A DNA stretch of 64,000 nucleotides from a phage. The notes below the pieces were generated by a model. It did not search any database. It was not told where the DNA came from and saw nothing but the letters and a program-made list of their open reading frames with translations. This document shows, piece by piece, positions 55,451 through 64,000 of the stretch. The DNA lies in the sequence record PZ445447.1; one strand, written 5' to 3'. Each line of letters begins with the position of its first letter. Position 1 is the first letter of the stretch. Both the position numbers and the translations under genes were made by a program.

Positions 55451-55801
55451 TCAGTAGATGTTTTGTTTAATCTCTATTCCAAACTTTTTAAACGAGTCAG
55501 CTGCAAGCATGAATTTACGAGCCGCTGATGGGTTAGAAGTATGCACGAAAATCTTCACGTTGTCAACTACAGGGGGCTCACCAAATACAAATTTTTCCTC
55601 CAACATAGATAGGCAATCGTACCCTTCGAACAACTCTCCAAGGTCGTTGTCCATGTGCCACTCAGAAACGCGTCTGTAGAGCTTTCCCCTATCGTTAATA
55701 AAATCTATAAACTCGGAGGAATTCTTTAGCCAAATAGCGTCGGGGAGCCCATAATTTGACGGATCTCTCAAGTCATCCAGCCACACAATCAACTTCTTCA
55801 T
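55451..55801 (-). CDS. hypothetical protein
   Basis: 116 aa; coupled to the RNA ligase gene. Confidence 0.5.
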   Translation of the reverse strand: MKKLIVWLDDLRDPSNYGLPDAIWLKNSSEFIDFINDRGKLYRRVSEWHMDNDLGELFEGYDCLSMLEEKFVFGEPPVVDNVKIFVHTSNPSAARKFMLAADSFKKFGIEIKQNIY

Positions 55802-56733
55802 TGCATATAGTTCTCGTTGTGGAAATAGTAATCAAGTATCTCACGGCGTTCCTGCTCCAGGAGGCAGTTCCACACATCTTCTGTGTAATTGTTACGAATG
55901 AAGTTTACCATGCCGTAAAACTCTTCGTCAACACGTTTAAAGATATCATCATCCCAAATCTTCCAAGCTTTACCCCTCATTACGGCCTTTCGTGCCAGAT
56001 AGTATGGAGACTTGATCTTCAACTGCAGATCATAAGGGTAGTAAGGCTTACGAATCATATATCCTTCACCTCTTGTTTCTGCAGCTAACTCTTTTGCATA
56101 GCTGAACGGAATTTCACGCACAGTGTGAGGACGTTTTGCACCAAGGTATTTGGCAATCCCATCTAAAGCGGCTTCTGGTAGCATTATTCCAGAATCATTA
56201 TATCTGCAACCTATCAAATATGCGCCATGGTCTTCTTGAACAATATGCGGATCTGAAGGGTGACAAATTTCAAACATGAATGTCATGTTTTCATTGCCCA
56301 TAACCTTCTTGATAAGATCTAAATTACCACATTGCTCTTGGATGGTTTCCTTTGCAAGGTTACAATATGGAGAATCAAGAGACCCGGTTGTTGAGAACAA
56401 TAGGTCACCTTTATGAGATGATACCACACCAAGGAATCCGTTCTTTTTCTCTACCGCAGTCACAAGCTTATTGTCAGGCAGGTTGGTGGAGTTTTCTCCC
56501 AAGTTAAACACTTTTGTGAAGGGCCATGCCACAACATTTCCTTCATTACCGACAACAATGCCTCGGCACTCCAGTAATCGAGGAGACAAATGCCATAAGT
56601 TGTTGTAGAATACTTTTCTGGCATATTTATAGATCTTTAACCCAAGATCTGGGTAATATCTGCTGGTTACAAGACCTTTGTCAACTAGGTCGTCTGCATT
56701 AAAATACTTCATCATACGTTCCTCATTTGTCAT
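55798..56733 (-). CDS. RNA ligase (T4 Rnl1-like)
   Basis: WHLSPRLLECRGIVV...KVFNLGEN parallels T4 Rnl1 WLLPDALECRGIMF...KFFNLNEN; motif I VEKKNGFLGV (KxNG); FMFEICHP and LKIKSPYY blocks. Confidence 0.7.
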   Translation of the reverse strand: MTNEERMMKYFNADDLVDKGLVTSRYYPDLGLKIYKYARKVFYNNLWHLSPRLLECRGIVVGNEGNVVAWPFTKVFNLGENSTNLPDNKLVTAVEKKNGFLGVVSSHKGDLLFSTTGSLDSPYCNLAKETIQEQCGNLDLIKKVMGNENMTFMFEICHPSDPHIVQEDHGAYLIGCRYNDSGIMLPEAALDGIAKYLGAKRPHTVREIPFSYAKELAAETRGEGYMIRKPYYPYDLQLKIKSPYYLARKAVMRGKAWKIWDDDIFKRVDEEFYGMVNFIRNNYTEDVWNCLLEQERREILDYYFHNENYMQ

Positions 56734-56833
56734 TTTGTCCCTTTATCCTGCCACACAAATAACCTAGTGTCAACACTTGAAATTAACAAAACAGTTAGGT
56801 ATACTATCATCGAAATTAAAACGGAGGGTTACT

Positions 56834-57244
56834 ATGTCTAAAATGCTATATATCGTGCGTGGTCTACCAGGGTCTGGCAAATCAACACTGGCAAATGCGC
56901 TATCTTTAGAAGGTCTGTATCCACATTTTGAGAACGACATGTTCTGGTACGACGATGATGGAAATTACAACTGGGATGCAAGTAAAGTAACACTTGCAGC
57001 AAAATGGTGCAAAGATAACGTAGAAGATATGATGCGTATGGGATACGACCGTATCGTGGTAAGTAATACATTTACAAAAGAAAAATATGTGCAAGAATAT
57101 ATTGACATGGCGATCAGTCATGGGTATAGTTATACCGTAATCGTGGTTGAAAACCGCCATGGTAGTAAAAGCATTCATGATGTTCCAGACAGGGTTGTGG
57201 ATCGTATGGAACGCCAGCTTAAAAACTGCATTAAACTTAAATGA
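56834..57244 (+). CDS. P-loop kinase (polynucleotide kinase-like)
   Basis: ATG 56834 after acggagggtt RBS; Walker A VRGLPGSGKSTLA; 136 aa. Confidence 0.6.
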   Translation: MSKMLYIVRGLPGSGKSTLANALSLEGLYPHFENDMFWYDDDGNYNWDASKVTLAAKWCKDNVEDMMRMGYDRIVVSNTFTKEKYVQEYIDMAISHGYSYTVIVVENRHGSKSIHDVPDRVVDRMERQLKNCIKLK

Positions 57245-57251
57245 GGAATGT

Positions 57252-57806
57252 ATGAAATACTTTGTAACAAGCGACACACACTTTCTCCACCAGCGGGTCA
57301 TGGAGTTTGACTCATGTCAAAAACACAGATCTCAGTATGATCACAATCTTGACAGTATGAATGCGGGGATCATCACCAAGTGGAACTCTGTTGTGTCACC
57401 TGCAGACACTGTGTTTCACTTAGGAGATATTGCGTGCACTAATGATAAGAATATTAACAAATTGCTCCCAGATGTTCTAAATATGTTGAACGGACATATT
57501 ATTCTTGTTCGTGGTAACCATGACACAAGGACGACTGTCAGAATTATGAAAGAGTTCGGTCATGAGGTTGTAGATTATTACGAGCTTCGCCACAACAAGA
57601 ATTTGATCTGTATGAGCCATTACCAGTTTGCAAAGTGGAACAGAAAGCCTCACGGATCAGTCCAACTGTTCGGTCATGCTCACGGAACCACACAACAGTT
57701 GTTTGGCAGACAGTTTGATGTCGGTTGGGATGTGTGGGGGAGACTCTTACCATTAGAAGAGGCATACCGTATTGCAATGAGTTTTGCTATTGACAGCGGG
57801 GAGTAA
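57252..57806 (+). CDS. calcineurin-like metallophosphoesterase
   Basis: metallophosphatase motifs SDTHF, GDIA, GNHD, GHAH; 8 nt after the kinase gene. Confidence 0.7.
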   Translation: MKYFVTSDTHFLHQRVMEFDSCQKHRSQYDHNLDSMNAGIITKWNSVVSPADTVFHLGDIACTNDKNINKLLPDVLNMLNGHIILVRGNHDTRTTVRIMKEFGHEVVDYYELRHNKNLICMSHYQFAKWNRKPHGSVQLFGHAHGTTQQLFGRQFDVGWDVWGRLLPLEEAYRIAMSFAIDSGE

Positions 57807-60655: not shown

Positions 60656-60684
60656 TTGACAAACTTTGCTTAACAGTGTAATAT
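60656..60684 (+). promoter_or_regulatory. sigma70-type promoter upstream of tRNA cluster
   Basis: TTGACA (60656) - 17 nt - TAATAT (60679). Confidence 0.55.
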
Positions 60685-60742: not shown

Positions 60743-60817
60743 GCCCTGTTAGCTTAGTGGATAAAGCAGCGGCCTTCTAAGCCGTTGACACTGGTTCGAG
60801 TCCAGTACGGGGTGCCA
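60743..60817 (+). tRNA. tRNA-Arg (anticodon TCT)
   Basis: manual cloverleaf: acceptor gccctgt/acggggt, D-stem gctt/aagc, anticodon loop cttctaa, T-arm actgg-ttcgagt-ccagt, encoded CCA. Confidence 0.8.
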
Positions 60818-60821
60818 AATT

Positions 60822-60908
60822 GGGGAGTTATCCCGTAGAGGTAGCGGTGTAGACTGTAAATCTATTGTCATTGCGACTCGGGTGGTTCGACTCCACCACT
60901 CCCCACCA
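60822..60908 (+). tRNA. tRNA-Tyr (anticodon GTA), type II
   Basis: acceptor ggggagt/actcccc, anticodon loop ctgtaaa, long variable arm, T-arm ggtgg-ttcgact-ccacc, encoded CCA. Confidence 0.75.
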
Positions 60909-61022
60909 AATTTATATTTTTAGATGCATAAATAATACAGATAATGGCATTGATATTTATCGTCGTTTATACTAGTCACTAACTGCTCGAAAATCAGTGT
61001 CATTATCAGTATAATTTATAAA

Positions 61023-61113
61023 GGAGGGTAGGGAGCAATGGTGCTCAAGCGGTCTTGAAAACCGTCCCGTTGAGGATGACTCGATGATGGTTCGATTCCA
61101 TTACTCTCCGCCA
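61023..61113 (+). tRNA. tRNA-Ser (anticodon TGA), type II
   Basis: acceptor ggagggt/actctcc, anticodon arm gcggt-cttgaaa-accgt, long variable arm, T-loop ttcgatt, encoded CCA. Confidence 0.75.
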
Positions 61114-61211
61114 CATTGTTGACCTTGTAATTAAGCGAAAGCCGGAAGCAGAACCGGATTATCAAATGTTACAGTCGTCATCGCCGACTAGCAACATGGT
61201 CAACATACTGA

Positions 61212-61310
61212 GCTAGGTAAGCCCTTTGGCAAGGGCGAGGATTTTTAATCCTGAAAATAGACGAGGTAGTCGTTGAATACATAGGTGGTTCGATTCCATC
61301 ACCTAGCACC
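61212..61310 (+). tRNA. atypical tRNA-like gene (anticodon ambiguous, TTT if 7-nt loop)
   Basis: acceptor gctaggt/acctagc, D-arm gccc-tttggcaa-gggc and T-arm ggtgg-ttcgatt-ccatc are canonical, but anticodon stem is imperfect and 29 nt lie between anticodon arm and T-arm; 99 nt total. Confidence 0.4.
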
Positions 61311-61315
61311 TTTTT

Positions 61316-61391
61316 GCTGATGTAGCACAATCGGTAGTGCAATTGATTTGTAATCAATAGGTTGTAGGTTCAAGTCCTGCCATCAGCACCA
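61316..61391 (+). tRNA. tRNA-Thr (anticodon TGT)
   Basis: acceptor gctgatg/catcagc, D-stem gcac/gtgc, anticodon arm attga-tttgtaa-tcaat, T-loop ttcaagt, encoded CCA. Confidence 0.8.
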
Positions 61392-61392
61392 A

Positions 61393-61467
61393 GGCCCTGT
61401 AGCTGGAAGGTTCAAGCAAGCGACTCATAATCGCCAGACGGTGGTTCAATTCCACCCAGGGCCACCA
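61393..61467 (+). tRNA. tRNA with CAT anticodon (Met or lysidine-type Ile)
   Basis: acceptor ggccctg/cagggcc, anticodon loop ctcataa, T-arm ggtgg-ttcaatt-ccacc, encoded CCA; 3-bp D-stem and A.C at top of anticodon stem. Confidence 0.65.
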
Positions 61468-61478
61468 AATAGTAAATA

Positions 61479-61555
61479 CTCCGCGTAGCTCAGCTTGGTA
61501 GAGCGCCTGATTTGGGATCAGGAGGTCGAGTGTTCGAATCACTCCGTGGAGACCA
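61479..61555 (+). tRNA. tRNA-Pro (anticodon TGG)
   Basis: acceptor ctccgcg/cgtggag, D-arm gctc-agcttggta-gagc, anticodon arm cctga-tttggga-tcagg, T-loop ttcgaat, encoded CCA. Confidence 0.8.
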
Positions 61556-62375: not shown

Positions 62376-62659
62376 GAGTTGCTACACTGTTTATTGTGTG
62401 CTTGTTATTATGTGGGTGTGCAACCAGCGTTGAGAGAGAATACAAGATTGACCCTCCTGATGTAGGAAGGTTGATTGTTAAACCCCCGGAAGGTGCCATG
62501 AAACCACCTGCTAAAGCTATGCCTTTGAAGAAAGGTGCGCCAGATGCAGTGAATTCTGGCATTATGAGGGATAATAATCTGTCTTGTAGCAATGATAGAG
62601 CTAAATTGATCATTTTGCAAGACTATATTAGAACACTTTTTCCAAAGGAGAGAGGTTAA
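62372..62659 (+). CDS. putative o-spanin (Rz1-like lipoprotein)
   Basis: signal peptide with Cys cluster (FIVCLLLCGCATS) and proline-rich mature region (DPPDVGRLIVKPPEGAMKPPAKAMP); lipobox non-canonical. Confidence 0.5.
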   Translation: MRVATLFIVCLLLCGCATSVEREYKIDPPDVGRLIVKPPEGAMKPPAKAMPLKKGAPDAVNSGIMRDNNLSCSNDRAKLIILQDYIRTLFPKERG

Positions 62660-63087
62660 TGTCTAAGATTTACGGACCGTGTTCTGAAAAGCAGAAGATG
62701 ATCCTAGAAAACGATGCAGATATTTTGGTAATCGGCGGTGCCGCAGGGTCTGGCAAGTCGTTCCTCTTGCAATTGATGCCACTTAAAATTATTGATGACC
62801 CCCACAGCTCTGTGGTTATGTTCCGAAGAACAACCCCACAGTTGGAAGGTGAGGGTGGATTATGGCCTAAAGCAGTAGCTATTTATAGTGATCTGCCTGA
62901 AAACATTAAGCCAAAGTTTAGAGAGAAGGATCATAAGTTCATTTTTCCACGGTTTGATCCGAACACTGGCAAGTGGGATAGAAGCAAAAAGGGAGCTGTT
63001 GTAAAATACTGCCACATGGAGTATGTACAAGATAAGCTTAACCATCAGGGGCTTGAGTACACCATGGTTTGCTTCGATGAGGGTTAA
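62659..63087 (+). CDS. terminase large subunit-like P-loop ATPase, N-terminal fragment (gene interrupted)
   Basis: Walker A ILVIGGAAGSGKSF and Walker B-like MVCFDEG; the frame stops immediately after the Walker B at 142 aa. Confidence 0.5.
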   Translation: MSKIYGPCSEKQKMILENDADILVIGGAAGSGKSFLLQLMPLKIIDDPHSSVVMFRRTTPQLEGEGGLWPKAVAIYSDLPENIKPKFREKDHKFIFPRFDPNTGKWDRSKKGAVVKYCHMEYVQDKLNHQGLEYTMVCFDEG

Positions 63088-64000
63088 TTTGTAGCTCTCG
63101 TAAAACCTCCCTAATTGCGGGGAAATCTTTATTATTGACACCACCAACCTGTCATGGTAACATGACAGAGGCTTCGAAGAGAGATCGAAGGTATGGTAAC
63201 AGTGTGTTAATTTAGATAATCCGCAGCGAAGCATCCGAGAGGATGAACGTTCAACGACTAGTCGAAAGACGTAGAATCAAGCGATTCGAAACGGGAGGGT
63301 GAATGTGTAATACTAAGAAATGTATGGATTGCCAAAGAGTTCTACCTATTGATGATTTCTTTTTATCATCTAAGAGCAAGGATGGATACTCAGGTACATG
63401 CAAGGAATGCTATATGTACTACAGGAAGGGTGGATCTCGTAAAAACAAAAATATGGTTAAGAGAGATGATGCAGCATTGTTTATTCAAGACTTGCTGAAG
63501 AAAGGTGAACTTTTTGAATGCAAATCTTGTCATGAAAGTATGCTCGCTGATAGTTTTTACACAAAACGTGACTATGGTAAAGTATATCTGGTTACGAACA
63601 GGTGTAAGATGTGTGAAAAGTTTTATCAGATTGAGAAGAAATTTCACATAACAAAAGATGAATACTATCGTCTACTCTCAGATCAAGATCATAAGTGTGC
63701 CATTTGTAGAATATCCCTTGATGAGTATAGGACGCAAGGGTATAGAGATTTCTTTTGTGTTGATCATGACCATAAAACTGGTGCTGTAAGAGGGTTGCTT
63801 TGTGATAAATGCAACAGAGCTTTAGGTTTCTTCCAAGAGGATGAGGAAACTATTCTTAGAGCGGCAGAGTATTTACACATTCATAAGATATAGTCTGGTC
63901 TGCATGGAGACATGCAGCTGCCTGAAAATGGCGGGGCAAGACTAGCGACCTTGCCCGAACATAAACGACACAATTCGAATGGGAGCAGATAGACTACCTG
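63088..64000 (+). mobile_element. putative intron or homing-endonuclease insertion (runs past window end)
   Basis: structured sequence with GNRA-capped hairpins (ctgtcatg-gtaa-catgacag; ctgcatg-gaga-catgcag) flanking an Endo VII-like endonuclease ORF right after the truncated terminase-like frame; 3' boundary not in window. Confidence 0.4.
63303..63893 (+). CDS. Endo VII-like HNH homing endonuclease with N-terminal zinc-ribbon domains
   Basis: C-terminal HKCAICRISLDEY...VDHDHKTGAVRGLLCDKCNRALGFF is a textbook endonuclease VII core; N-terminal CMDCQ...DG...CKEC zinc-ribbon repeats; gggagggtga RBS. Confidence 0.7.
   Translation: MCNTKKCMDCQRVLPIDDFFLSSKSKDGYSGTCKECYMYYRKGGSRKNKNMVKRDDAALFIQDLLKKGELFECKSCHESMLADSFYTKRDYGKVYLVTNRCKMCEKFYQIEKKFHITKDEYYRLLSDQDHKCAICRISLDEYRTQGYRDFFCVDHDHKTGAVRGLLCDKCNRALGFFQEDEETILRAAEYLHIHKI

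What the first reader, a model, noticed from the sequence alone, without database searches (positions are those of the whole stretch)
60743..61555. Seven-gene tRNA cluster including an atypical 99-nt tRNA-like gene
Six genes fold by hand into canonical cloverleafs with encoded CCA (Arg-TCT, Tyr-GTA, Ser-TGA, Thr-TGT, a CAT-anticodon tRNA, Pro-TGG). The gene at 61212-61310 has good acceptor, D and T arms but an imperfect anticodon stem and 29 extra nucleotides between anticodon arm and T-arm; it ends in CC rather than CCA. It could be a tRNA with an unusual extra arm, a suppressor or decoy tRNA, or a pseudogene. The CAT-anticodon tRNA may be a lysidine-modified AUA reader.
Basis: seen in the sequence. 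Interest (0 to 1): 0.45.

Follow-up and report, generated by a model that had tools for sequence, protein, structure and literature searches.

The report
Conserved non-decoding tRNA-like RNA in phage
The seven-gene tRNA cluster of this rV5-like coliphage is real, and its odd 99-nt member is a strongly conserved tRNA-shaped RNA, found across the whole phage subfamily, that keeps the tRNA body but has no conserved anticodon loop, so it probably mimics a tRNA instead of decoding.

Summary
ARAGORN calls seven genes at exactly the stated coordinates. Six are ordinary tRNAs with encoded CCA: Arg-UCU, Tyr-GUA, Ser-UGA, Thr-UGU, CAU and Pro-UGG. The window is an rV5-like Vequintavirus, whose published description lists only six tRNAs.

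The CAU gene resembles E. coli and T4 tRNA-Ile2, which supports a lysidine-modified AUA reader.

The atypical gene (61212-61310, 'X') is not a pseudogene. Orthologues occur once per genome in every Vequintavirinae genus found. Across 44 distinct sequences, every tested cloverleaf pair is maintained, with 10-11 pairs changed on both sides, and the elbow tertiary pair G19:C56 switches to U19:A56.

The 'anticodon' hairpin keeps its stem, but its loop varies in length (6-7 nt) and sequence, often without U33. Two single-stranded linkers around a fast-evolving extra hairpin are almost invariant.

GenBank labels X as Lys, Stop, OTHER, ??? or nothing. Rfam has no family for it, and I found no paper describing it.

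Best reading (confidence 0.5): a stable, processed tRNA mimic. It possibly acts in the conflict over tRNA-targeting defences, because the rV5 loop imitates tRNA-Lys and an RNA-repair gene trio lies about 4 kb upstream.

Main rival: an unusual but working tRNA-Lys. The function itself is inferred, not shown.

The parts
60656..60684 (+). Sigma-70-type promoter-like site (TTGACA-17-TAATAT) upstream of the cluster
   Evidence: 10 of 12 matches. The same site is annotated P(tRNA) in the rV5 record. It is a consensus match only.
60743..60817 (+). tRNA-Arg (UCU), CCA encoded
   Evidence: Rfam tRNA 67.8 bits. AGA makes up 23% of Arg codons in the window ORFs, against 5.1% in E. coli O157 (PMC3606486).
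60822..60908 (+). tRNA-Tyr (GUA), class II with a long variable arm, CCA encoded
   Evidence: Rfam tRNA 29.9 bits.
60987..61015 (+). Second promoter-like site (TCGAAA-17-TATAAT) just upstream of tRNA-Ser
   Evidence: It is a consensus match only.
61023..61113 (+). tRNA-Ser (UGA), class II, CCA encoded
   Evidence: It is below Rfam thresholds (tRNA-Sec model 41.5 bits against 47) but 73% identical to T4 tRNA-Ser.
61212..61310 (+). Element X: the whole conserved tRNA-like RNA gene (99 nt, ends A73-C-C, no encoded A76)
   Evidence: The family model R1 scores it 98.7 bits, E = 7e-23, while no ordinary tRNA exceeds 27 bits. Orthologue alignments are A2, A3 and A7.
61212..61218 (+). X acceptor stem, 5' strand (GCUAGGU); pairs with 61301-61307
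   Evidence: All 7 pairs hold in 44 distinct orthologues, and 4-5 of them show changes on both sides.
61221..61236 (+). X D arm (GCCC-UUUGGCAA-GGGC), which can also form 6 bp with a 4-nt loop. It is preceded by A8 A9, and U sits at position 14.
   Evidence: Three D-stem pairs change on both sides. The second G of the loop GG (position 19) switches to U exactly when T-loop C56 switches to A (15 GC / 8 UA; 16 GC / 5 UA). The two extra U-A pairs never vary, so they are untested.
61238..61252 (+). X anticodon-like hairpin AGGAU-UUUUA-AUCCU (or 4 bp with the loop UUUUUAA)
   Evidence: The stem is kept through compensatory changes: A-U / U-A / C-G at the fourth pair, A-U / G-C at the first. The loop is not conserved: UUUUUAA, UUUAUAA, C-N-K-C-C-A (6 nt), N-AUCAA-N and GUGAUA.
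61253..61259 (+). X 5' linker GAAAAUA (unpaired)
   Evidence: GAAAA is present in all but one of the 44 distinct family members, L027, which has GUAAAA.
61260..61274 (+). X extra (variable-region) hairpin GACGA-GGUAG-UCGUU
   Evidence: A hairpin is predicted here in the 16 members folded individually. Its sequence and length differ between clades, and compensatory changes occur within clades, for example A:U to G:C between rV5 and Av-05.
61275..61283 (+). X 3' linker GAAUACAUA (unpaired)
   Evidence: AUACAUA is invariant in every family member, and no conserved pairing partner was found.
61284..61300 (+). X T arm GGUGG-UUCGAUU-CCAUC
   Evidence: All five pairs hold and one changes on both sides. 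T-loop position 56 covaries with the D loop.
61301..61310 (+). X acceptor stem 3' strand (ACCUAGC), discriminator A and CC
   Evidence: Most orthologues encode U73-CCA. The rV5 and Av-05 clade has A-CC-U, A-CA-U, U-AC-A or C-AC-A.
61316..61391 (+). tRNA-Thr (UGU), CCA encoded
   Evidence: Rfam 76.8 bits. ACA makes up 36% of Thr codons.
61393..61467 (+). CAU-anticodon tRNA, most likely tRNA-Ile2 (lysidine, reads AUA), CCA encoded
   Evidence: Rfam 60.0 bits. Its best E. coli match is tRNA-Ile, and its acceptor stem is identical to that of the T4 gene annotated tRNA-Ile.
61479..61555 (+). tRNA-Pro (UGG), CCA encoded
   Evidence: Rfam 66.4 bits. It is 82% identical to T4 tRNA-Pro.

Best explanation
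Element X (61212-61310) is a functional, conserved, tRNA-shaped non-coding RNA. It is neither a standard decoding tRNA nor a pseudogene.

Shown:
- It is one member of a single-copy orthologous family present in every Vequintavirinae genus found.
- Selection maintains the acceptor stem, D arm, T arm and the D-loop/T-loop elbow, that is, the L-shaped body.
- Selection also maintains a hairpin in the anticodon position, a second hairpin in the variable region, and two single-stranded linkers (GAAAA... and ...AUACAUA).
- Neither the length nor the sequence of the anticodon-like loop is maintained.

Inferred:
- X is co-transcribed with its neighbouring tRNAs. In most genera it starts 2 nt after the previous tRNA's CCA.
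- It is cut out by the host tRNA-processing enzymes: RNase P at the 5' end, and 3' trimming plus the CCA-adding enzyme where CCA is not encoded, as in this window.
- It then accumulates as a stable RNA of about 100 nt with a tRNA-like acceptor end and elbow.
- It acts by mimicry, occupying a protein that recognises the upper half or overall shape of a tRNA, and does not read a codon.

Most likely setting (a weaker inference): the phage-host conflict over tRNAs. X would act as a competitor or decoy for tRNA-directed defence enzymes, or as a spare they cannot use. In the rV5 lineage the hairpin has come to imitate the tRNA-Lys(UUU) anticodon arm, which is the target of PrrC (own knowledge) and of PARIS AriB (PMC12409363), and the phage carries an RNA-repair gene trio nearby.
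For: Family and selection:
- Homologues occur in 129 phage records when searched with the rV5 form and 189 with the Seunavirus form. Hosts include Escherichia, Salmonella, Cronobacter, Klebsiella, Proteus, Raoultella and Erwinia, and Pectobacterium phages also match.
- There is one copy in a complete genome (loci L048-L050).
- On 23 distinct sequences, 506 of 506 pair cells are standard pairs and 10 pairs change on both sides. None of 500 shuffles reaches either value, and versions with the partners slid along pair only 35-51%.
- This is repeated on 21 distinct metagenomic sequences: 462 of 462 cells, 11 pairs.
- The tertiary pair G19:C56 becomes U19:A56 in 8 and 5 sequences respectively, with no exception.
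- Within the genus Vequintavirus, X is almost invariant while the spacers diverge, and the few changes keep pairing.

Against decoding:
- Loop variants are UUUUUAA, UUUAUAA, CAUCCA, CAGCCA, CCUCCA, CCGCCA, CUUCCA, CAUCAAA, UAUCAAA, AAUCAAG and GUGAUA.
- The position corresponding to U33 is A or C in most clades.
- The discriminator is U in most members but A, U or C in the rV5 and Av-05 clade, where CCA is also not encoded.
- ARAGORN fails to call X in Av-05, TH18 and KE22. Rfam scores orthologues below every gathering cutoff.
- The LL12 record notes 'isotype prediction via tRNAscan-SE inconsistent'.
- AAA is not enriched in the phage: 58% of Lys codons.

Processing context: X starts 2 nt after the upstream tRNA's CCA in KE22 (tRNA-Ile ends at 1494, X starts at 1497) and in the other non-rV5 genera.

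Conflict context:
- The window encodes an Rnl1-family RNA ligase (55798-56733), a P-loop kinase (56834-57244) and a metallophosphoesterase (57252-57806).
- X's lower hairpin reads G30 A31 U32 U U U U A A U39 C40 C41. E. coli tRNA-Lys, written from my own knowledge, reads G30 A31 C32 U U U U A A U39 C40 A41.
- The AriB site is U36AAUC|A41, and an A41-to-C change reduces cleavage (PMC12409363).
- Septu and Retron-Eco7 PtuAB cut the variable arm of tRNA-Tyr, and phage tRNAs counter them (PMC13096335).
Against: - No expression, processing, charging or binding data exist for X. Everything beyond conservation is inference.
- In this window the loop can be read as a normal 7-nt loop U-U-UUU-A-A, with A73. 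By my own knowledge that is the full LysRS identity set, so a working tRNA-Lys is not excluded for the rV5 lineage.
- In the Seuna- and Mydovirus clade the loop keeps C-C-A constant while the two preceding positions vary. With U73, G1:C72 and C2:G71 this resembles the GlyRS identity set (own knowledge) and hints at charging, which a pure decoy would not need.
- The loop type follows phage phylogeny and not host genus, which does not suggest host-specific tuning.
- Phage V18 has deleted X together with tRNA-Tyr and tRNA-Ser and is viable, so X is dispensable at least in the laboratory.
- No candidate partner protein was identified. The curated BASEL annotation lists no CCA-adding enzyme or synthetase-like gene.
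Confidence: 0.5

Rival explanations
1. In the rV5 lineage X is a genuine decoding tRNA-Lys(UUU) with an unusual body. It would be charged by LysRS and read AAA/AAG, perhaps as a nuclease-resistant replacement for host tRNA-Lys, as the T5 tRNA-Lys is against PARIS.
For: - The Rfam tRNA model scores it 35.5 bits, above the cutoff of 29, with the loop aligned as UUUUUAA.
- BASEL, CPT and other annotators call it tRNA-Lys.
- A73 together with U34 U35 U36 is the E. coli LysRS identity set (own knowledge).
- The discriminator is A only in the clade whose loop is UUU.
- The C41 of X corresponds to the A41-to-C change that protects T5 tRNA-Lys from AriB (PMC12409363).
- RNA-repair genes lie nearby.
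Against: - The canonical register needs a G.G mismatch and has no nucleotide 26. The free hairpin closes to a 3-5 nt loop.
- The closest relatives, Av-05 and TH18, have UAU in the same place, with U73 or C73.
- All other genera have 6-nt loops or loops without U33 on the same conserved body.
- X is the only gene of the cluster without an encoded CCA.
- The tRNAscan isotype is flagged as inconsistent.
- AAA is not over-used by the phage.
Confidence: 0.2
2. X is a chargeable but non-decoding amino-acid carrier, or a decoy for enzymes that act on aminoacyl-tRNA. Host synthetases would load it through acceptor and loop identity elements: Gly-like in Seuna- and Mydovirus, Lys-like in rV5, Cys-like (U73 with C35 A36) in Henunavirus. 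It would be kept away from the ribosome by its abnormal anticodon arm.
For: - U73-CCA, G1:C72 and C2:G71 are conserved in most clades.
- Five loop variants of the Seuna/Mydo type keep C-C-A while the two preceding positions vary. That is the pattern expected if only C35 and C36 matter, as for GlyRS (own knowledge).
- The discriminator switches to A in the clade whose loop is UUU.
- Among ordinary tRNAs, the phages' own tRNA-Cys is one of the best scorers on the X model, at 27 bits. Its acceptor stem GCACGGU-U73 is close to X's GCAGGGU-U73.
Against: - The identity assignments rest on recalled rules and were not tested here.
- Av-05 and TH18 (UAU with U73 or C73) fit no identity set.
- The discriminator varies and CCA is lost in the rV5 and Av-05 clade.
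- No aminoacyl-tRNA-dependent transferase is annotated in the genome.
Confidence: 0.12
3. X is a cis-acting processing or punctuation element of the polycistronic tRNA transcript. It would be a tRNA-shaped handle for RNase P or RNase E, or a weak terminator, that sets the yield of neighbouring tRNAs and has no role of its own once released.
For: - X always lies inside a tRNA array.
- The upper half of the tRNA, which processing enzymes recognise, is the best-conserved part.
- In rV5 the T arm and acceptor stem followed by a run of T match a terminator-like pattern.
Against: - Its neighbours are themselves tRNAs and need no extra handle.
- The run of T is specific to rV5; other clades have CCAAA.
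- This reading does not explain the invariant linkers, the maintained anticodon-position and extra hairpins, or the encoded U73-CCA.
Confidence: 0.08
4. X is a suppressor or recoding tRNA: ochre 'tta', the quadruplet 'atcc' as ARAGORN prints it, or opal 'tca' in Erwinia phages.
For: GenBank records call it tRNA-Stop(tta) or tRNA-sup(tca). ARAGORN prints a four-base anticodon. The Henunavirus-type loop CAUCAAA resembles the tRNA-Sec consensus loop CUUCAAA.
Against: - The different programs read different 'anticodons' from the same sequence.
- UAA is the commonest stop codon in the window ORFs, 47 of 77, so an ochre suppressor would be harmful.
- The Henunavirus-type loops have A at position 33 and sit on a 4-bp stem.
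- Gene density in these phages is normal under the standard code.
Confidence: 0.04
5. X is a decaying tRNA pseudogene, a class II tRNA that lost its anticodon loop and CCA.
For: The anticodon loop is non-canonical, A76 is missing and the discriminator varies in the rV5 and Av-05 clade. V18 deleted it.
Against: - All stem pairs are maintained, with many compensatory double changes, across genera that share only about 70-75% identity.
- The tertiary pair covaries.
- The linkers are invariant while flanking spacers are unalignable.
- It is retained as a single copy throughout the subfamily.
Confidence: 0.03

Closest known systems
Class II (long-variable-arm) bacterial tRNAs: Ser, Leu, Tyr
   Same: X has a 7-bp acceptor stem, a 5-bp T stem with a UUCGAUU loop, the G18G19 / psi55-C56 elbow, and a hairpin in the variable region. 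It is co-located with tRNA genes. Class II tRNAs (Tyr, Ser, Leu) are among the best-scoring ordinary tRNAs on the X model, at 23-27 bits. The core of X's T arm, UGGUUCGAUUCCAU, is identical to that of the rV5 tRNA-Ser.
   Different: The extra hairpin is flanked by 7 and 9 conserved unpaired nucleotides, where class II tRNAs have one or two. X has A8/U14 where tRNAs have U8/A14. Its anticodon-position stem is 4-5 bp, with a 6-7 nt loop that is not conserved. Most members have U73, which by my own knowledge no E. coli class II tRNA uses.
tRNA-Sec (Rfam RF01852)
   Same: This is the best Rfam match for the orthologues in other genera, at 23-39 bits. The D arm can be drawn as 6 bp with a 4-nt loop. 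Both have a long extra arm. The Henunavirus-type loop CAUCAAA resembles the consensus CUUCAAA.
   Different: X scores below the gathering cutoff of 47 everywhere. Its acceptor plus T stems are 7+5 bp, not 8+5. It has U73, not G73, and A33, not U33. The rV5 form has UUU in place of UCA. The two extra D-stem pairs never vary, so they are unproven.
T4 stable RNAs species 1 and 2 (rnaC, rnaD)
   Same: These are small stable RNAs encoded inside a phage tRNA cluster. rnaC contains the T-arm-like sequence CCGGGUUCGAAUCCCGG. By my own knowledge their function is still unknown and they are co-processed with tRNAs.
   Different: There is no sequence or structure homology: the X model gives no match at E <= 1 over that T4 region. 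X keeps a complete cloverleaf with an elbow, which I did not find in the rnaC/rnaD sequences.
Phage tRNAs that neutralise tRNA-targeting defences (T5 tRNA-Lys against PARIS AriB; T5/T6 tRNA-Tyr against Retron-Eco7/Septu PtuAB)
   Same: They are encoded in phage tRNA clusters and differ from the host tRNA at the nuclease's recognition site. The authors raise the possibility that some act as inhibitors when abundant (PMC12409363; PMC13096335; PMC11464382). The rV5 form of X has a Lys-like anticodon arm carrying the protective A41-to-C change, and an altered variable region.
   Different: Those are canonical tRNAs shown to decode and to rescue infection. X has a non-canonical body, its orthologues lack any common anticodon, and no defence phenotype has been tested.
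Non-decoding 'pseudo-tRNAs' of bacteria (Bacillus cereus tRNA-Other; Staphylococcus non-proteinogenic tRNA-Gly)
   Same: These are tRNA-shaped RNAs that gene finders label 'Other' or pseudo. They are kept by selection and used outside ribosomal decoding (PMC3399842 for tRNA-Other; own knowledge for the staphylococcal tRNA-Gly).
   Different: They are of host origin, have ordinary length and lack the extra hairpin and linkers. No homology was tested or expected.

Membership tests
Canonical elongator tRNA (Rfam RF00005) | Score at or above the curated gathering cutoff (29 bits) | tested here: met
   X scores 35.5 bits in this window. The orthologues in Hena1, Mydo, GAP31 and L031 do not reach it; their best match is tRNA-Sec at 23-39 bits, below the cutoff of 47.
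Canonical elongator tRNA (Rfam RF00005) | 7-bp acceptor stem, 4-bp D stem and 5-bp T stem kept by base pairing | tested here: met
   All pair cells are standard pairs in 44 distinct sequences, and 10-11 pairs change on both sides.
Canonical elongator tRNA (Rfam RF00005) | D-loop/T-loop elbow (G18-psi55, G19-C56) | tested here: met
   G19:C56 covaries with U19:A56 without exception.
Canonical elongator tRNA (Rfam RF00005) | 5-bp anticodon stem with a 7-nt loop, U33, and an anticodon conserved among orthologues | tested here: not met
   In the window the stem is 4 bp plus a G.G mismatch with the loop UUUUUAA, or 5-6 bp with a 3-5 nt loop. Orthologues have 6-nt or 7-nt loops with differing sequences, and most have A or C at position 33.
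Canonical elongator tRNA (Rfam RF00005) | U8-A14 tertiary pair and a single nucleotide 26 | tested here: not met
   A8 and U14 are invariant. Nucleotide 26 is deleted in the Rfam alignment.
Canonical elongator tRNA (Rfam RF00005) | Aminoacylation and ribosomal decoding | not testable with these tools
   This needs tRNA sequencing, charging assays and ribosome binding.
tRNA-Lys(UUU) | UUU anticodon with A73 (E. coli LysRS identity set, own knowledge) | tested here: inconclusive
   UUU and A73 are both present, but on a non-canonical stem. The closest relatives have UAU with U73 or C73. The LL12 record notes an inconsistent isotype prediction.
Class II tRNA (Ser/Leu/Tyr) | Variable arm is a stem-loop joined to the core by at most one to three unpaired nucleotides | tested here: not met
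   The hairpin is flanked by 7 and 9 unpaired nucleotides, and these are conserved.
tRNA-Sec (Rfam RF01852) | Gathering score of 47 bits; 8+5 bp acceptor/T helix; UCA anticodon; G73 | tested here: not met
   Scores are 23-39 bits in other genera. The helix is 7+5 bp, the discriminator is U73 or A73, and the window has UUU.
tRNA-Sec (Rfam RF01852) | 6-bp D stem with a 4-nt D loop | tested here: inconclusive
   The extra pairs U14-A21 and U15-A20 can form and are predicted by the MFE fold. They never vary, so covariation gives no test.
tmRNA | tRNA-like domain with G3:U70, plus a tag-encoding reading frame | tested here: not met
   ARAGORN reports no tmRNA. Position 3:70 is U:A, C:G or A:U, and no tag frame is present.
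T4 rnaC/rnaD stable RNAs | Homology to T4 species 1 or species 2 RNA | tested here: not met
   The X covariance model finds nothing at E <= 1 over T4 70908-71171 (L024 1409-1672).
Anti-defence phage tRNA (T5 tRNA-Lys / tRNA-Tyr type) | Rescues infection in the presence of a tRNA-cleaving defence system and resists cleavage | not testable with these tools
   Only indirect context is available: a Lys-like arm with C41, and nearby RNA-repair genes (PMC12409363).

The most novel reading that the evidence does not exclude
X defines an undescribed family of phage-encoded tRNA mimics, present throughout the Vequintavirinae. They keep the acceptor end and elbow of a tRNA but replace the decoding end with a rapidly changing hairpin, and add a second hairpin held by two invariant linkers. 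Under this reading the family is an RNA-based counter-defence: an abundant decoy or inhibitor that traps tRNA-directed immune enzymes (anticodon nucleases, variable-arm nucleases or acceptor-end modifiers), working together with the phage's RNA-repair genes.
Probability: 0.2. Interest if true: 0.78.

Novelty: new variant of a known kind. Interest (0 to 1): 0.55.

Why it matters
Phage tRNA genes have recently been shown to work as counter-measures against bacterial immune systems that cut tRNAs, in addition to the older idea that they supplement rare codons.

X is kept across a whole phage subfamily with a complete tRNA body but no stable anticodon. Codon supply cannot explain that, so it points to a job done by tRNA shape alone. 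If that job is decoying or inhibiting tRNA-directed defence enzymes, it would be an RNA-based anti-defence factor in phages that are widely used for E. coli and Salmonella biocontrol.

There are practical consequences as well. The gene is currently annotated inconsistently, as Lys, Stop, OTHER or nothing, in well over a hundred GenBank records. This distorts tRNA counts and analyses of codon use against tRNA content. The covariance model built here separates the family cleanly from real tRNAs.

Tried and rejected
- **Homology to T4 rnaC/rnaD.** I fetched the T4 tRNA region and searched it with the X model. No match was found.
- **Wider family through a 5'-half DNA pattern in IMG/VR.** The nine new loci were all chance matches with no T arm or cloverleaf, most of them copies of one repeated unrelated sequence.
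- **Bacterial genomes.** There was one exact pattern match, in Sporosarcina. It has no cloverleaf and no model hit, so the family is not chromosomal.
- **MAFFT alignment of X with the phage tRNA-Ser, Tyr and Cys to find its parent.** The alignment was uninformative. Only local resemblances remain, to the Ser T arm and the Cys acceptor stem with U73, and I treat them as leads.
- **Pairing between the two linkers, or between a linker and another part of X.** A 5-6 bp pairing (AUGUGU with AUACAU) appears only in the Henunavirus type and is absent elsewhere, so I rejected it as a family feature.
- **A partner enzyme in the genome.** The curated BASEL annotation of a 100%-identical relative lists no CCA-adding enzyme, synthetase-like protein or aminoacyl-transferase. 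It lists only the ligase, kinase and phosphoesterase trio.
- **Literature.** Six full-text searches and ten papers read found no description of this RNA. The rV5 genome paper lists six tRNAs and omits it.
- **Complementarity to rRNA.** I noticed short matches between the loop or linker and 16S rRNA or Shine-Dalgarno-like sequences only by eye. They are too short to mean anything and I did not pursue them.


Full report
**What the window is.** The 1.1 kb around the finding is 100% identical to Escherichia phages rV5_ev168/ev158 and three BASEL phages, and 99.9% identical to phage rV5 itself. The window is therefore an rV5-like Vequintavirus (Vequintavirinae). In the rV5 record the cluster follows a promoter annotated P(tRNA) and precedes a small ORF, the two spanin genes and the large terminase gene. 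The rV5 genome paper reports six tRNAs and does not mention the seventh gene (PMC3606486).

**Checking the observation.**
- Rfam's tRNA model passes its cutoff for Thr, Arg, Pro, the CAT gene, the atypical gene (35.5 bits against 29) and Tyr (29.9). Ser is found only by ARAGORN and, below threshold, by the tRNA-Sec model.
- The six ordinary genes end in CCA. The atypical one ends A-CC and is followed by T5.
- The cluster is ordinary for a large myovirus. Arg-UCU, Thr-UGU and Pro-UGG read codons the phage uses far more than its host. AGA is 23%, ACA 36% and CCA 31% of their families in the window ORFs. The E. coli O157 values are 5.1%, 14.6% and 19.1% (PMC3606486).

**The CAT tRNA.**
- Its best match in 5,413 E. 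coli genomes is annotated tRNA-Ile, at 81.6% over the full length.
- Its acceptor stem GGCCCUG equals that of the T4 gene annotated tRNA-Ile, whose anticodon-loop sequence CTCATAA carries CAT.
- It has C4:G69 and C5:G68. I recall these as the acceptor-stem marks that the lysidine synthetase TilS uses to tell tRNA-Ile2 from tRNA-Met (own knowledge).
'tRNA-Met' in the rV5 record is probably a misnomer.

**The atypical gene (X) is one member of a conserved family.** BLAST finds X in 129 phage records, nearly identical within Vequintavirus and 93-94% identical in Av-05 and TH18. One Seunavirus hit at 75% was used as a new query and brought in 189 records from Seunavirus, Mydovirus, Henunavirus and unclassified relatives. 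Their hosts are Salmonella, Cronobacter, Klebsiella, Proteus, Raoultella, Enterobacter and Erwinia, and Pectobacterium phages also match.

Pattern scans gave the following:

| Collection | Result |
|---|---|
| IMG/VR | 17 loci matched |
| Metagenomes | 28 loci matched, 26 confirmed by the family model |
| 185,579 bacterial and archaeal genomes | only one chance match |

A covariance model built from 23 distinct members scores every family member at 85 bits or more. The fused remnant in phage V18 scores 33 bits and no ordinary tRNA exceeds 27 bits. The model finds exactly one copy in a complete genome.

**What is conserved.**
- On the 23 sequences, all 506 pair cells of the acceptor, D, upper anticodon-position and T stems are standard pairs, and ten pairs change on both sides. 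No shuffle of 500 reaches these values, and sliding the partners drops pairing to 35-51%.
- The 21 distinct metagenomic sequences repeat the result.
- The most telling column pair is tertiary. The second G of the D-loop GG is replaced by U exactly in those sequences whose T loop reads UUAGAUU and not UUCGAUU. This is the canonical G19:C56 elbow contact becoming U19:A56. X therefore folds into a real L-shaped tRNA body.
- The body departs from tRNA norms in fixed ways. A8 and U14 replace U8 and A14. The D arm can extend to 6 bp with a 4-nt loop. Two single-stranded linkers are almost invariant: GAAAA after the first hairpin and AUACAUA before the T stem.
- Between the linkers lies a hairpin whose sequence and length differ between clades. 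It is kept by compensatory changes within clades.

**What is not conserved.** The hairpin in the anticodon position keeps four base pairs everywhere, and its first and fourth pairs covary. Its loop differs by clade:

| Clade | Loop |
|---|---|
| rV5 | UUUUUAA |
| Av-05, TH18 | UUUAUAA |
| Seunavirus, Mydovirus | six-base C-N-K-C-C-A on a 5-bp stem |
| Henunavirus-like | N-AUCAA-N |
| One metagenomic member | GUGAUA |

- The nucleotide corresponding to the universal U33 is usually A or C.
- The discriminator is U, followed by an encoded CCA, in most clades. In the rV5 and Av-05 clade it is A, U or C and CCA is not encoded.
- No single anticodon, loop geometry or synthetase identity is shared by the orthologues.
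- This explains why ARAGORN misses X in three relatives and why Rfam scores it below all cutoffs in other genera.
- It also explains why GenBank calls the same sequence tRNA-Lys, tRNA-Stop(tta), tRNA-sup(tca), tRNA-OTHER, ???(atcc), a hypothetical protein, or nothing.

- A pseudogene is excluded by the comparative pattern.
- A suppressor is unlikely. The 'anticodons' reported are artefacts of different registers. UAA is the phage's main stop codon, and the opal-like loops lack U33.
- A tRNA with an extra arm is a fair description of the shape.
- Whether the rV5 form still decodes is the main open question. It can present U-U-UUU-A-A with A73, which by my own knowledge is the LysRS identity set.
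- Against decoding stand several points:
  - the G.G mismatch and missing nucleotide 26;
  - the tight hairpin predicted thermodynamically;
  - the missing CCA;
  - the UAU loop with U73 or C73 in the nearest relatives;
  - the annotators' note of an inconsistent isotype;
  - the absence of AAA enrichment.

**How it most likely works.**

*Shown:* strong selection on a tRNA-like upper body, on two hairpins and on two linkers, with no selection for a common anticodon.

*Inferred:*
- X sits inside tRNA arrays and starts 2 nt after the preceding tRNA's CCA in most genera. It is therefore transcribed with the tRNAs and released by RNase P and the 3' trimming enzymes.
- Where CCA is not encoded, the host CCA-adding enzyme would have to complete it. 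By my own knowledge this is known for CCA-less T4 tRNA precursors.
- The product would be a stable tRNA mimic. Its conserved surfaces are those read by proteins that recognise the acceptor end and elbow, not the anticodon.

*Weaker inference:* the arena is the conflict over tRNAs.
- The window encodes, about 4 kb upstream, an Rnl1-family RNA ligase, a P-loop kinase and a metallophosphoesterase. These are the same activities with which T4 repairs tRNA-Lys cut by PrrC (own knowledge).
- Recent work shows that AriB of PARIS cuts tRNA-Lys, Thr and Asn at U36AAUC|A41 and that A41-to-C protects (PMC12409363). The rV5 form of X reads U36AAUCC41.
- Septu and Retron-Eco7 cut the variable arm of tRNA-Tyr, and phage tRNAs overcome this when abundant (PMC13096335).
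- A decoy, inhibitor or unusable spare fits these facts but is untested.
- I give 0.5 to 'functional non-decoding mimic' and about 0.2 to the specific anti-defence reading.

**Comparison with known families.**
- X passes the Rfam tRNA cutoff in this window but fails the defining anticodon-arm features. It should not be filed as an ordinary tRNA.
- It resembles tRNA-Sec in its possible 6/4 D arm, its long extra region and, in some clades, a UCA-containing loop. It fails the 8+5 helix, G73 and the gathering score.
- It has no homology to T4 rnaC/rnaD. These remain the nearest conceptual precedent: stable RNAs of unknown function inside a phage tRNA cluster.
- It is best described as a new variant of the tRNA-like or pseudo-tRNA kind.

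**Limits.** There are no expression or biochemical data. The identity-element arguments rest on recalled rules. Alignments fitted to the model lean towards the structure, although A3 was a plain MAFFT alignment. V18 shows that X is dispensable in culture.

Noticed in passing
window 55798-57806: An RNA-repair gene trio lies about 4 kb upstream of the tRNA cluster: an Rnl1-family RNA ligase (55798-56733, minus strand; PF09511, 55 bits), a P-loop AAA_33 kinase (56834-57244) and a calcineurin-like phosphoesterase (57252-57806). BASEL annotates them as RNA ligase, polynucleotide kinase and phosphoesterase. The arrangement is reminiscent of T4 Pnkp/Rnl1 tRNA repair.
   Followed up: partly
L007 (Escherichia phage V18) 1451-1547: A natural deletion fuses the 5' half of tRNA-Tyr to the 3' part of X at a short shared sequence. 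It removes the rest of Tyr, all of Ser and the 5' half of X. The remnant scores only 33 bits on the X model.
   Followed up: partly
L022 (Raoultella phage Ro1) 8-400: An HNH homing-endonuclease gene is inserted between tRNA-Thr and X. This fits the reported association of homing endonucleases with phage tRNA clusters (PMC13096335).
   Followed up: no
window 62659-64000: The large terminase gene is split into separate ORFs (62659-63087, 63303-63893 and onward). It is contiguous in phage JeffSchatz. This matches the published introns and homing endonuclease in rV5 TerL (PMC3606486). Rfam reported no group I intron at gathering score in the window.
   Followed up: partly
GenBank MG0656xx records: Eighteen records named 'Campylobacter phage' are 99-100% identical to rV5-like coliphages over this locus. 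The host labels are probably wrong, or the preparations were contaminated.
   Followed up: no
window 60909-61022 and 61114-61211: Two spacers of about 100 nt are unusually long for a tRNA array. The first is AT-rich and carries a second promoter-like site (60987-61015). The second contains an inverted repeat (TTGACC ... GGTCAA) and diverges quickly between close relatives.
   Followed up: no
window 61316-61391: The phage tRNA-Thr(UGU) carries the exact AriB cleavage sequence U36AAUC|A41 described for E. coli tRNA-Lys and tRNA-Thr (PMC12409363). If it helps against PARIS, it is not through a change at that site.
   Followed up: no
L049 49020-49337 (JeffSchatz 99020-99337): A gene annotated 'ribosome hibernation factor' is present in the rV5-like genome, which is another translation-directed function in this phage. 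It lies outside the finding and probably outside the window.
   Followed up: no
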